Shown one piece after another: positions 15,551 through 19,969 of a stretch of DNA of 64,000 bases. Both the position numbers and the translations under genes were made by a program. Every line of letters starts with the position of its first letter. Within the stretch, counting starts at the first letter, position 1. The notes below the pieces were generated by a model that did not search any database, had not been told where the DNA came from, and saw nothing but the letters and a program-made list of their open reading frames with translations. The stretch comes from Felis catus (lineage: Eukaryota): positions 41,292,001 through 41,356,000 of the forward strand of contig NC_058381.1 of assembly GCF_018350175.1 (NCBI RefSeq), written 5' to 3'.

Positions 15551-18500
15551 GTGAGGCTCAGACCCCGAGAAGCCCCGCTGTGCCTCCCTCCCCTGCCCCG
15601 GACCCCGGGCTCAGCCCTGATGCTTCAAATGGGGAGGGGGAGAAAGGACCCGGTCGCCACCACCCTTAGTCCCTCACTTTGTCCCCCAGACGCGCCTGCG
15701 TCTGTGCTGCCTCTCGCCCTCTCACGCCCTCTAATTCTGCGCCCCACCCCCTTCACCNNNNNNNNNNNNNNNNNNNNNNNNNNNNNNNNNNNNNNNNNNN
15801 NNNNNNNNNNNNNNNNNNNNNNNNNNNNNNNNNNNNNNNNNNNNNNNNNNNNNNNNNNNNNNNNNNNNNNNNNNNNNNNNNNNNNNNNNNNNNNNNNNNN
15901 NNNNNNNNNNNNNNNNNNNNNNNNNNNNNNNNNNNNNNNNNNNNNNNNNNNNNTGCACTTGCACACATGCCCAGACTTCACACCCCCTTCACCCCAGTAG
16001 GCAGGTTCCCACCCAGACTGGACTTGGGAAGGAGCCATATGTGTAGCTGACTTCCATTTTAGCCCCAACCCCCAATGCAAATGCAGCATCAGACCCTCCA
16101 GTCCTAGGTAGTGATGAATACCCAGGTGTCATTCCGGGCTTAGAATCTCTGACCCAAAGCCAAGTCCCCGGTTTTCCAACCTGAGCCCTTTTGACTCTGA
16201 ATCTCCTGTCCTCTTCTGAGTGAAGCTCAAACTCTGGTACTACCTTAAGTAATTTTCTCCACCCACTCTCCTTCTCCCAGGAAGTAAGGGTCATTTGTTT
16301 TTGCTTCCTGATTCATAGCTAAAATATCTGTGGAGAAAGTCTGAAGGAAGAAGAGGAGACAGATGGTGACAAAAGGGAGTGCCTTTCATTTCTAAAGCTC
16401 TCCTTTTTTTTTTTTTTTTTTTTAATGTTTATTTATTTTTGAGAGTGAGAGGGCACAAGTGGGATAGGGACAGAGAGAAAAAGAGAGACAGAATCCGAAG
16501 CAGGCTCCAGGCTCTGAGCTGTCAGCACAGAACCTAACTCGGGGCTTGAACTCAGGAACTGTGAGATCATGACCTGAGTTGAAGTCCCACCCTTAACCGA
16601 CTGAGCCACCCAGGTGCCCCCATAAAGCTCTTCCTTTTAATTGAACTAGTATCTCTTTACCTTCCTCCCCCCTTTATCCAGGAAGTGCCAATTTATAGCC
16701 TTTTGGGGAATTGCACATATAATTGTGTGGGAGGGAGAGGAAGGGGACAGGTGGTTCTTCGCATGAGACTGGCCTCAAGAGTTTTTATCCCACCTAATTC
16801 ATTCCATCAATGCTGTTCCCTTAACTTTAAACCAGGGAAGCTTCCTGTGGAATCAATCCAGGTTGTATTAGAGGAACTGAGGAAGAAAGGTGGGTTCAGG
16901 TCCTCAGATTTCCTTATTTTTCCTCCTAGTTGGGTTTTCCTGAGGGCAGCTTGGCACAAGTCTTTGCTTTTTTTTTTTTTTATTATTATTTTATTTCTTT
17001 TAACTTTTATTTATTAAGTAATCTCTGTACCCAACATGGGGCTCAAACTCACAACCCCTGAGATCAAGAGTCCCATGCTCTACCAACTGAGCCAGCCACG
17101 TTTCTCTGAGATTTTAGTTTTAAGTAATCTCTCTCACCCAGCATGGGGCTCGAACCCACAACCTCAAGATCAAGAGTCACCCACTCCACTGACTGAGCCA
17201 GCCAGGTGCCCCATGAGTCTTTGCTTTTAACAACTTTCTTTTTCTCTCCCCTGGCTTGGAGCCCATAGTGTTCTATATAGAAGATAGTCCAATTCCCTGG
17301 GTCCTTTTCCCTATTGGTATTCATTATTGAAATCTCTCCATCTGTGTTCTGAGACCTGGAGAAAGGTGGAAGGAGAATTGGTGCCTTGCAGATAATAATA
17401 GTAAAACAATTCTTGGATTTCACTTCCTGAAAGCTGAATCTCTTTCACTCTTTATACATTGGTTTTGCCTTTTGTCCCTTCTTAGCGTAAGATACTCTCA
17501 TAAGTATCTTTTTTGTAGGAAACCTGGAGTGGTTGGATAAGAACAAATCTAGCTTCCTGATCATGTGGCGAAGGCCGGAAGAATGGGGGAAACTCATCTA
17601 TCAGTGGGTGAGACTGTTCTGCCACAGTGACCCATGGCAAAGGAGAATTATATCTGTGTTCAGCAGATACCTAGTGTTCCTAGGTCTGGACTGAGCAAAG
17701 TGGGAAGGGGAAGAAAGAGGAAGTATAGGTCTTCCAGGCAAACCTCTTTCAATGACTCAATTTCCTAGGCTCCATAGAACTTCCCTACCTTTATAGGAGG
17801 CCAGAGGCTATGTGAGGCCATGTTTGGAGAATGCAGTGCTGGGAACCATGAGTACTATTGTTGGCTGGCGTCTCTGGCCACAGAAGATAAATGGGGAAAG
17901 GAAGGGCAAAAAAAAAAAAAAAACAACAACAACCCTGGGGCCCCTCCCCCACTAGGCGCTTTGGGGCTGTCCACAATATGAATGAGACATTCTGAACCAG
18001 TATGGGTGTGGGGACAAACTGTCTTCCCCAAATTCCTAGCCACCACCAGCCCTAAACTTTCCCAAGGGAGAGAAGAGGGGAAGAAGCATCAACAACCTAA
18101 ATATAACAAACACATGCCACCTATTCCTGAACAGGAAAACAAAATGAGAGGTCACTCCTCAGACATGTGAAGGCCTGTGGTTTAGTGGTTCCGTATATGT
18201 GTGTACACGTATAAATATAGCACCTGTAGGGGTTGTGGTTTTTAGGCCACTCCTGCCGAGGTGACAGTGAGCCCTGGTTTGGGAACAGGTATCATTCGTG
18301 GGTCAGATAGGTGGAGTCAGTGAGCTCACCTTCCAGGAGATCCCTGGTCCTTATTCAGTCACTGTTTTCTGTGTCTATAGGTTTCCAGGAGTGGCCAGAA
18401 CAACTCCGTGTTCACTCTCTATGAGCTGACCAATGGGGAAGACACAGAGGATGAGGGTAATGCTTCTCCCTTTCCCTCCAGTTTTGTCATCTGAATCCTC

Positions 18501-19969
18501 CAGTCCTTGTTCAGCTGACATTCAGACTTCCCATCCCTGCCTTTGAATTCCAAATACTACATGATAGAAGGGCTCTTAACCCATGTCCAAGGTTTCCCTA
18601 AGCCACCTGAATTTACATGCAAAATACCCCCAAATTTTGTCAGTGGGATATGTGCATTTTTCTAGGGATAGAGTCCATATTAAAAGATTGTCAAGGGCAT
18701 CTGTGATCCATGAAAAGTTAAGAATTCCTGGTGTAGATAATGAATGAGGAACCGGCGCAGAAGATTAAGCCTGAAATCTCATTCTTTGCTGACGCTGGCT
18801 TTCTTTCACCCTTTATACTTACAGAGGGCTCAAGATTTGTGGGTGTCAGCTGAAGGGATTGGGCCAACACCACCATCCCCACCCTTAGGCCTTTTAAATA
18901 CTTTAGTTTCTAGCCAGGTGAGGATTTATATACTGTTTGATTTTTACATAGTGTAAATATACTCTTAGCTTTTTTATCTCTGACTTCATATTCTGATCCC
19001 AGGATCACCAAAAGTTCCAATCTCAGCTGGGGAGGAAAGGGCAGCTCCCCTTTCTGCCAGGCCCTGGCTGCCGTAACAGAGTTTACAGGTCTTGGCTGTT
19101 CCCCCCTGCCCTACAGGCCTCTGCTTGCTACTCCCACCATTGCCCCATGACTTCAGTGCCACAACCATGCCCAGCCCACCACTCATGCTGGGCAAAACTG
19201 GAGGCTTCCTCAGAAAGCAAGCTCCCTGACTCAAGCCGTAGGCCCCCGCAGGGAGTGAGGTGTGCGAGCCTGTTAGGGCTTGCCACCTGCTTCTCACATC
19301 TCCCTGCAATATCTTGCCATATCTCCAGATATTCAGCTGGCCCTTGGCTCCCAGCCTTGTTCCTTTTAACTAGGAAAGGGCAGATATCTGTGCTGGCCCT
19401 TAACAGTCTCCTGGTCAGAGGTATGGCTATACTTTGTGTTAGGACAGGTGCTCCTAATGGGTACAGGTGTGCAAACTAGGGTCAGTGTCCAGTGTCAAGG
19501 ACCTTGACGTTCCTAGGTTTAATTGTCCCCCACTTTGTGGCCCAAAAGTAGATGGTGTCACTCTCATACATCAGATACTAATGGCACATGGGTGGGGGAT
19601 ACACATGAGGGTTGAGTCCAACAGAAGAACCCAGAAGGGGAAAATAAGTGTGAACTCACATTTTGTGCAGACTCTGGCTTTCTCTCACCCCTTACTCTTA
19701 AGGCGTACCCAGGAAGGATTGGTGGCAGCGGCAGCAGTATAGGTGGTACATGTCTACCCTGGCCTCAAGGGGTCCCAGATTCCAGCTAGACTTCTCCTCA
19801 GGGGCCTTGAGCCCCCAGGAGCCAAGTGTCCCTGACTACCCATCTCTCCCTTCCAGAGTTCCATGGACTGGATGAAGCAACCCTACTCCGGGCTCTGCAG
19901 GCCCTACAGCAGGAGCACAAGGCTGAGATCATCACTGTCAGCGATGGCCGAGGCGTCAAGTTCTTCTAG
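15498..19969 (+). CDS. VPS25: ESCRT-II subunit VPS25; join(15498-15550,[exon 2 inside N-run 15758-15953],16836-16889,17519-17607,18381-18456,19857-19969)
   Basis: MAMSFEWPWQYRFPPFFT...KLPVESIQVVLEELRKK|GNLEWLDKNKSSFLIMWRRPEEWGKLIYQW|VSRSGQNNSVFTLYELTNGEDTEDE|EFHGLDEATLLRALQALQQEHKAEIITVSDGRGVKFF*; a 146-nt exon 2 restores frame and gives 176 aa. Confidence 0.96.
15758..15953 (+). CDS. VPS25: VPS25 exon 2 (hidden in N-run; boundaries not visible)
   Basis: The ~49 codons missing between exons 1 and 3 are found nowhere else; the 196-nt gap can hold them. Confidence 0.6.
16404..17212 (-). mobile_element. SINECs in VPS25 introns: 16404-16620 and two short copies at 17013-17212
   Basis: Reverse-complement SINEC motifs. 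Confidence 0.8.
16836..16889 (+). CDS. VPS25: VPS25 exon 3
   Basis: KLPVESIQVVLEELRKK; donor AAG|GTGGG. Confidence 0.93.
17519..17607 (+). CDS. VPS25: VPS25 exon 4
   Basis: TTTTGTAG|; NLEWLDKNKSSFLIMWRRPEEWGKLIYQW; |GTGAG. Confidence 0.95.
18381..18456 (+). CDS. VPS25: VPS25 exon 5
   Basis: CTATAG|; VSRSGQNNSVFTLYELTNGEDTEDE; |GTAAT. Confidence 0.95.
18565..18735. mobile_element. Probable old hAT-Charlie-type MITE
   Basis: Degenerate terminal inverted repeats (GGGCTCTTAACC ... AGTTAAGAATTCCTG); internal TTTTCTAGGGATAGAGTCCAT resembles Charlie MITEs; subfamily not assigned. Confidence 0.45.
18747..18860 (+). repeat. Diverged direct repeat, copy A (VPS25 intron 5)
   Basis: Aligns without gaps to 19626-19739 at 73/114 identity. 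Confidence 0.8.
19626..19739 (+). repeat. Diverged direct repeat, copy B (VPS25 intron 5)
   Basis: Aligns without gaps to 18747-18860, offset 879 nt. Confidence 0.8.
19857..19969 (+). CDS. VPS25: VPS25 exon 6 (stop)
   Basis: TTCCAG|; FHGLDEATLL...GRGVKFF TAG. Confidence 0.95.

What the first reader, a model, noticed from the sequence alone, without database searches (positions are those of the whole stretch)
18744..19742. Unexplained gap-free diverged direct-repeat pair in VPS25 intron 5, both copies inside short ORFs with related peptides
Seen: 18747-18860 and 19626-19739 (offset 879 nt) align without indels at 73/114 nt, and 64/93 in the core. Core A: AGATTAAGCCTGAAATCTCATTCTTTGCTGACGCTGGCTTTCTTTCACCCTTTATACTTA. 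Core B: AAAATAAGTGTGAACTCACATTTTGTGCAGACTCTGGCTTTCTCTCACCCCTTACTCTTA. Both are open in the same frame after an ATG (18744; 19605): RLSLKSHSLLTLAFFHPLYLQRAQDLWVSA vs KISVNSHFVQTLAFSHPLLLRRTQEGLVAA, with several synonymous swaps (AGG/CGT, ACG/ACT, TCT/TCA, GCT/GCG). It is not SINEC, MIR, L1 or L2. By my count the 41 mismatches are 18 transitions and 23 transversions with no indel, which is atypical of neutral mammalian decay. Caveat: mismatches by codon position are 12/13/16, so a coding signature is not established. Options: paired cis-elements or small intronic RNAs, duplicated micro-ORFs, LTR-like ends bracketing the ~765-nt interval, or a non-natural insertion. This is the most anomalous unexplained structure in the window.
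Basis: partly seen in the sequence, partly recalled or inferred. Interest (0 to 1): 0.7.

Follow-up and report, generated by a model that had tools for sequence, protein, structure and literature searches.

The report
Old local duplicate in VPS25 intron
Two look-alike 90-base stretches in one intron of the VPS25 gene are real and were found nowhere else in this mammal's genome, apart from one faint relative in the same gene; they are likely an old accidental copy of nearby DNA that is now mostly decaying, not a pair of small genes.

Summary
The pair is real. The homologous unit is about 18762-18855 / 19641-19734, with sharp ends. No further copy turned up genome-wide, except a weaker relative in intron 3. 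It is no artefact: 14 runs hold all sampled words. Unnamed database ORFs proved to be translated orthologues of both copies from other mammals. They show that the duplication predates those lineages, that copy B changes as fast as its flanks, and that neither micro-ORF is kept. The copies share no fold and no Rfam family. Gap-free pairs like this are ordinary: 860 of 2248 detectable simulated neutral duplicates, and a twin case elsewhere on the contig. Best reading: an ancient proximal duplication of the repair-mediated kind, largely neutral (0.65). Loose ends: the transversion excess (17 of 860 simulations), mild extra conservation of A, an A-only hairpin, and a predicted 93-nt cryptic exon starting inside A with no read support in shallow data.

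The parts
18762..18855 (+). Copy A of the duplicated unit
   Evidence: orthologue in P0001-P0005
19641..19734 (+). Copy B of the duplicated unit, 879 nt downstream
   Evidence: orthologues in P0007, P0009, P0010, P0011, P0012 clusters
17400..17457 (+). Probable weaker third relative C in VPS25 intron 3 (38 of 60 columns vs A, one 2-nt gap); could also be a pyrimidine-tract look-alike
   Evidence: 31 bits vs null 15 +- 2, 0 of 300; top non-A/B hit of A in 664 kb, both strands
18457..19856 (+). VPS25 intron 5 (phase 1), host of A and B
18606..18730 (+). Old dispersed repeat just 5' of A (hAT/Charlie-type MITE by recall; inverted ends near 18567-18580 and 18717-18730 by eye); not part of the duplicated unit
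   Evidence: profile from 11 own-genome copies matches at E 4.6e-7; ends printed
18775..18860 (+). Predicted long hairpin of copy A only
   Evidence: z -2.9, -3.9; 7 of 150 random 99-mers reach z -2.8
18825..18917 (+). Predicted cryptic exon, 93 nt, phase 1-1: CTGAC at 18789-93, pyrimidine tract, CAG acceptor, CAG/GTGAGG donor; TGA at 18851-53 in the VPS25 frame. Use not shown
   Evidence: scores 4.4 and 7.1; both sites compatible in the orthologue; no junction read

Best explanation
A and B are two diverged copies of one 90-95-nt piece of intron DNA, likely made by a single old short-range copying event during DNA break repair and since then left mostly to decay. Shown: the two copies, their sharp ends, their being private to this gene, their presence in other mammals, and B changing as fast as its flanks. 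Inferred: the mechanism (a broken end invades DNA about 1 kb away, copies a short tract and re-anneals, as in repair-mediated duplication), the date (before the split of the lineages seen, so likely before the placental orders radiated) and the lack of function. Which copy is the donor cannot be told. C may be a still older or shorter product of the same process.
For: Size, spacing and single partner fit the class: proximal duplicates of median 147 bp, peak distance about 1.2 kb, 192 found in dog (PMC2671141). No flank homology on either side. No other copy: patterns with 2-3 mismatches hit only A and B in 2.43 Gb; a looser one adds C and 3 outside hits against 5 control hits, none extending significantly. 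A-B identity is 61-64 of 91 whichever orthologue is used; B orthologues keep the B base at 18-21 of 26-27 A/B-different sites. B core vs flank amino-acid identity to this genome: 17/28 vs 18/27, 15/25 vs 50/85, 18/28 vs 50/100, p 0.2-1.0; one lineage has a three-codon deletion in the core. Private gap-free local pairs: 4 in 664 kb including this one; one is 99 nt, 73%, 11 transitions/16 transversions, offset 829. 860 of 2248 detectable simulated neutral duplicates are gap-free over 85 nt at 62-78%.
Against: Transitions at 37% or less of mismatches arose in only 17 of those 860 simulations. A's core changed less than its flank in the one orthologue cluster: 3/84 vs 40/372 minimal changes, p 0.016; 25/28 vs 90/124 residues, p 0.087; the hit was found through shared words, which biases upward. 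Two non-felid B orthologues share 22 of 25 core residues. A folds well (z about -3). A third relative on the same strand in another intron is what intronic RNA families look like. Breakpoint hallmarks and an empty site could not be examined. Orthologues were seen only as peptides, so synonymous changes are hidden.
Confidence: 0.65

Rival explanations
1. Copy A is a functional splicing element: its branch point, pyrimidine tract and AG start a 93-nt cassette exon that would truncate VPS25 and trigger decay in this species, and the A hairpin would hide these signals. B is its decayed duplicate.
For: Donor score 7.1 beats the real exon 4 and 5 donors (3.2, 1.4); an equally good acceptor-donor pair occurs 43 times in 1.33 Mb. 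Orthologue peptides imply TAG for CAG at the acceptor and GTGAG or GTAAG at the donor, and a 12-nt in-frame shortening. A is somewhat better kept than its flank. The hairpin pairs the CTGAC motif with the start of the exon.
Against: Noticed after the fact, thresholds set at the observed scores, matrices recalled. Acceptor is only 4.4, and 4 other cryptic acceptors in this intron score higher than 5. The orthologue has no stop in the exon. Both changes at the sites are plain transitions. No junction read; one contig runs unspliced over both sites (shallow). The one mouse Vps25 event with coordinates is skipping of the 90-nt exon that matches exon 4 by size and order.
Confidence: 0.13
2. A, B and C are relics of a very old family of cis-duplicated intronic elements (small RNA or DNA-binding module) under purifying selection, with free sites saturated and B relaxed in some lineages.
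For: Transversion excess fits fixed plus saturated sites. Three same-strand relatives in two introns of one housekeeping gene. Flanks show no homology.
Against: No shared fold: consensus index 0.30, 21 of 200 column shuffles as good. No Rfam match. Identity is not patchier than chance (p 0.33). Changes do not avoid shared sites once polarised (p 0.2-0.7). No read pile-ups (not a small-RNA library).
Confidence: 0.11
3. A and B are independent insertions, or a local copy, of a low-copy ancient repeat that my tools could not name.
For: No Dfam library was available. Copies at 70% escape the DNA search, which did not even find B from A. A's hairpin could be a transposon palindrome.
Against: Three patterns and profile scans of 664 kb found no family. 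An L2 profile from 30 own-genome copies misses A and B. No A-tail at either 3' end.
Confidence: 0.08
4. Duplicated micro-ORFs encoding related peptides.
For: Both copies are open after an ATG in this genome; the ATG of A is compatible with its orthologue.
Against: No third-position bias in any frame. B's ATG reads V in P0007 and P0017. The other tempting frame has a stop here that the orthologue lacks. No Pfam family near its cut-off; no named homologue.
Confidence: 0.02
5. LTR-like ends around a 765-nt element, an assembly error or an artificial insertion.
For: Direct repeats bracket a spacer.
Against: 14 runs hold all sampled words, 11 of them from 4 studies not marked as a possible source. 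Spacer and both copies are collinear with other mammals' sequence. The spacer is single-copy; no TG..CA ends or target-site repeat seen by eye.
Confidence: 0.01

Closest known systems
Repair-mediated duplications (Pace et al. 2009, PMC2671141; abstract, sections 6, 7, 12 and passages read)
   Same: Short (50-619 bp), non-tandem, partner within 5 kb, one other copy, no poly(A) tail; occur in dog and cow; can copy splice sites.
   Different: Their set lies inside interrupted transposons and is mostly young, with readable breakpoints. This pair is about 30% diverged, not inside a recognised transposon, its breakpoints are erased, and a possible third copy exists.
'Doublets', short paired duplications (Thomas et al., known here only as cited in PMC2671141)
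   Same: Short local two-copy duplicates in mammalian genomes.
   Different: Those surveys cover identical or near-identical pairs under 100 bp; this would be an aged example.
Cis-duplicated intronic snoRNAs or miRNA clusters (recalled)
   Same: Same-strand paralogues of about 100 nt in introns of a housekeeping gene.
   Different: No conserved boxes, no shared fold, no Rfam match, two copies in one intron, B evolving at flank rate.
Poison (NMD) cassette exons (recalled)
   Same: Branch-point motif, tract, YAG, strong donor, stop 64 nt before the junction in this species.
   Different: Stop absent in the orthologue, no junction reads, no strong conservation shown.

Membership tests
Repair-mediated proximal duplication | 50-619 bp, partner more than 50 bp and less than 5 kb away | tested here: met
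   about 94 nt, offset 879
Repair-mediated proximal duplication | Found at only one other place in the genome | tested here: inconclusive
   only A and B at 2-3 mismatches, but a weaker relative C 1.36 kb upstream; copies below 70% could be missed
Repair-mediated proximal duplication | No poly(A/T) tail | tested here: met
   ends printed
Repair-mediated proximal duplication | Microhomology, filler or deletion at breakpoints; empty site in an outgroup | not testable with these tools
   too old, and no outgroup DNA available
Box C/D or H/ACA snoRNA | Match to a curated family | tested here: not met
   none at gathering score; 8 weak matches at E up to 10, none over A, two touching the 3' end of B far below cut-off
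Box C/D or H/ACA snoRNA | Boxes and fold kept in both copies | tested here: not met
   by eye, no C box in either copy and no ACA in register in B; consensus index 0.30
Box C/D or H/ACA snoRNA | Stable small RNA with defined ends | tested here: inconclusive
   no pile-ups, but 3 reads only and no small-RNA library
miRNA cluster | Both copies form long hairpins | tested here: not met
   A z about -3; B and its orthologue-implied forms z -0.3 to +1.4
Conserved micro-ORF | Third-position bias, start and frame kept | tested here: not met
L2 LINE fragment | Match to an L2 3' profile | tested here: not met
   profile from 30 copies finds many elements in 264 kb, none over A or B; covers only about 520 nt of L2, family name recalled
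Any Dfam interspersed repeat | Match to a consensus | not testable with these tools
   no Dfam library; indirect tests found no dispersed family
LTR element | TG..CA termini, target-site repeat, many copies | tested here: not met
Poison cassette exon | Splice sites present and kept | tested here: met
   (one orthologue cluster, inferred from peptides)
Poison cassette exon | Premature stop kept across species | tested here: not met
   stop here, none in P0001-P0005
Poison cassette exon | Inclusion seen in RNA, raised when decay is blocked | tested here: inconclusive
   no junction in shallow data

The most novel reading that the evidence does not exclude
Copy A is a conserved, hairpin-gated cryptic exon (18825-18917) that tunes VPS25 dosage: the hairpin hides its branch point and acceptor, and inclusion breaks the second winged-helix domain or triggers decay; B and C are spent duplicates of the same splice module.
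Probability: 0.1. Interest if true: 0.5.

Novelty: new member of a known kind. Interest (0 to 1): 0.17.

Why it matters
As an aged local duplicate it matters little: it is one example of a known process, and such pairs turned up about once per 170 kb here. It is a useful caution for the scan: gap-free 70% pairs with look-alike peptides arise without any function. It would matter if A gates a cryptic exon, because VPS25 is a core ESCRT-II subunit, recessive variants cause lethal neonatal encephalopathy, and an intronic change that alters its splicing is a hypomorphic allele in mouse (PMC13712088, title and passage).

Tried and rejected
Tandem duplication of intron tail plus exon 6 (an eye-catching likeness near 19013-19070): no signal, 90-139 of 300 nulls as good. 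Homology upstream of the old repeat: none. L2 origin: rejected as tested. Enrichment of changes at A/B-different sites (p 0.03) vanished after polarising. Metagenome scan: 5 exact hits, none extending beyond 27 nt. P0008 and P0013, 2 of the 8 hits, are translations of tandem arrays judged by eye and were left out of all counts. Protein search with A's ORF: nothing; the last search covered only 241-2000 residues and found nothing, which is uninformative. Atlas look-up gave no answer. Reads were laid on the intron only, so exon depth, and with it the power to see a rare exon, is unknown. Human-rodent conserved regions near WNK4 list none upstream of the promoter, but regions overlapping annotated genes were excluded, so this says nothing (PMC3298642; parts 2-3 of 5 read). 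Nine paper searches listed no title or abstract on an element in this intron; only 8 papers were opened. Earlier-findings look-ups were empty.

Full report
Observation. The best ungapped diagonal scores 36 against a mean of 12.4 and a maximum of 17 in 200 shuffles. The gene is VPS25 and intron 5 spans 18457-19856. A pair-HMM gives the core 42-46 bits but the flanks only -1 to 4 bits, matched by 6-82 of 100 nulls. The unit is therefore about 18762-18855 and 19641-19734. The organism is likely a felid (inferred from SINE-like tRNA matches and run labels).

Not an artefact. Of 24 listed runs, 14 hold all sampled words; 11 of these, from 4 studies, are not marked as a possible source.

Copy number. 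Three shared-position patterns with 2-3 mismatches hit only A and B in 2.43 Gb, with no control hits. An A/B profile finds nothing at E below 0.3 in 664 kb of fetched DNA. One weaker relative, C at 17400-17457 in intron 3, aligns to A at 38 of 60 columns. It scores 31 bits against nulls of 15 +- 2 (0 of 300), matches B in register at 20 bits (0-4 of 300), and is A's best non-A/B hit in 664 kb on both strands. With C as query, two unrelated places score as well, so I put C at about 0.7. A pattern covering all three adds 3 outside hits against 5 control hits; the best scale to E about 6 for the genome. An L2 profile from 30 own-genome copies misses A and B. An old dispersed repeat lies at 18606-18730, next to A but outside it.

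Orthologues by an indirect route. No related genome was on offer, but protein searches returned unnamed ORFs called on Logan/ENA contigs that are translations of this intron in other mammals. One cluster of 5 is collinear with A and 350 nt downstream, across stops and frameshifts. Six of the 8 hits are B: one near-identical cluster and five more distant ones; those long enough align along B's own flanks. The other two hits are tandem-array translations and were dropped. The species are unknown, and no record holds both copies. Still, B orthologues keep the B base at 18-21 of 26-27 A/B-different sites, A orthologues the A base at 25-26 of 28, and A-B identity stays at 61-64 of 91 in every pairing. 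So the copies had already diverged about as far as today when these lineages split (inference; hidden synonymous sites were taken from this genome, which favours constancy).

Not coding. Mismatches show no third-position bias in any of six frames. In the frame one base off, this genome has a stop that the orthologue lacks. No Pfam family comes near its cut-off.

Constraint. B's core is no better kept than its flanks: 17/28 vs 18/27, 15/25 vs 50/85 and 18/28 vs 50/100 identical residues (p 0.78, 1.0, 0.20), and one lineage lost three codons inside it. Against this, two distant B orthologues share 22 of 25 core residues with each other. A's core shows 3 minimal changes in 84 nt against 40 in 372 (p 0.016; residues p 0.087), from one cluster found through shared words. 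One contig shows G>A at 18794 within the species.

RNA. No Rfam family. A folds into an 86-nt hairpin (z -2.9; -3.9), a level reached by 7 of 150 random 99-mers; B and its orthologue-implied forms do not, and the joint consensus index is 0.30. Reads: 3 in X24 (2% of the run read), all over B and the intron end; 0 in X21; 5 unspliced contigs in X17 and X18; no joints or pile-ups. This is too shallow to exclude a rare product.

Is the pattern anomalous? Among 4800 simulated neutral duplicates, 2248 were detectable and 860 of these were gap-free over 85 nt at 62-78%. The lack of indels is thus expected. Only 17 of the 860 had as few transitions, so that oddity stands under my model (parameters recalled). 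Real DNA is less tidy: 22 of 118 such genomic pairs do, though these include simple-repeat tails. Of 1959 raw local hits in 664 kb, 4 private pairs remain after removing multi-copy and low-complexity sequence; one besides ours is 99 nt, 73%, 11 transitions to 16 transversions, offset 829. Its copies end in A-rich tails, so it may have another origin.

Mechanism. Pace et al. (PMC2671141) describe 824 human duplicates within 5 kb, median 147 bp, peak spacing about 1.2 kb, made by strand-annealing repair, with 192 in dog. Size, spacing, sharp ends and the lack of a tail fit. The defining breakpoint marks cannot be read at this age, so the pair works like that class but membership is not proven. 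Confidence 0.65.

The boldest open reading. A holds CTGAC (18789-93), a pyrimidine tract and CAG; a strong donor follows at 18918. Together they outline a 93-nt phase 1-1 exon with a stop 64 nt before the junction. Both sites appear usable in the orthologue, and A's hairpin would cover the branch motif. But this was noticed after the fact, the stop is not kept, stronger cryptic acceptors lie nearby, and no read supports it. The mouse Vps25 event in PMC7397853 (one supplement row; file 1 not searched) concerns another exon; the human skipping event in PMC8100795 has no coordinates in the passages seen. Probability 0.1.

Papers seen: PMC2671141 abstract, three sections, passages; PMC1579232, PMC5919691, PMC11358489, PMC13712088, PMC8100795 passages only; PMC3298642 passages and part of the supplement; PMC7397853 passage and one supplement row. 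Their unread supplements, and bioRxiv supplements, which were closed, could hold intron-level annotation. Repeat family names (L2, hAT/Charlie, SINEC) and the snoRNA and poison-exon criteria are recalled.

Verdict. Real, old, locus-private duplication; ordinary in kind; small residual chance of a splicing role for copy A. Interest 0.17.

Noticed in passing
L101:1801-1899 and L101:2630-2728 (G000:C37:50041801): A second private gap-free pair, 99 nt, 73%, 11 transitions/16 transversions, offset 829; both copies end in AATAAA plus an A-run; no Rfam match; shares a 12-nt word with copy A but no profile match.
   Followed up: partly
L083:7367-7437 (offset 600) and L075:5861-5905 (offset 374): Two more private local duplicates, 71 nt at 80% and 45 nt at 89%; the second brackets SINE insertions.
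   Followed up: no
window 17400-17457: Weaker third relative of the unit in intron 3, about 60 nt before the exon 4 acceptor.
   Followed up: yes
window 17489-17508: Perfect 7-bp inverted repeat with a 6-nt loop directly before the pyrimidine tract of the intron 3 acceptor.
   Followed up: no
window 18457 and 18918: The real intron 5 donor scores weakly (1.4) while a cryptic donor 461 nt inside the intron scores 7.1; it could also act as an alternative 5' site.
   Followed up: partly
window 19221-19337: Faint L2-like stretch in the spacer, not significant (E 0.66).
   Followed up: partly
window 19665-19677: Orthologue peptides imply that other mammals carry a Maf/AP-1-like site here (motif recalled) that this genome has lost; not tested.
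   Followed up: no
P0001-P0025: Unnamed ab-initio ORFs in the large protein collections include translations of mammalian intron DNA and can serve as a rough source of orthologues; they are not evidence of coding.
   Followed up: yes
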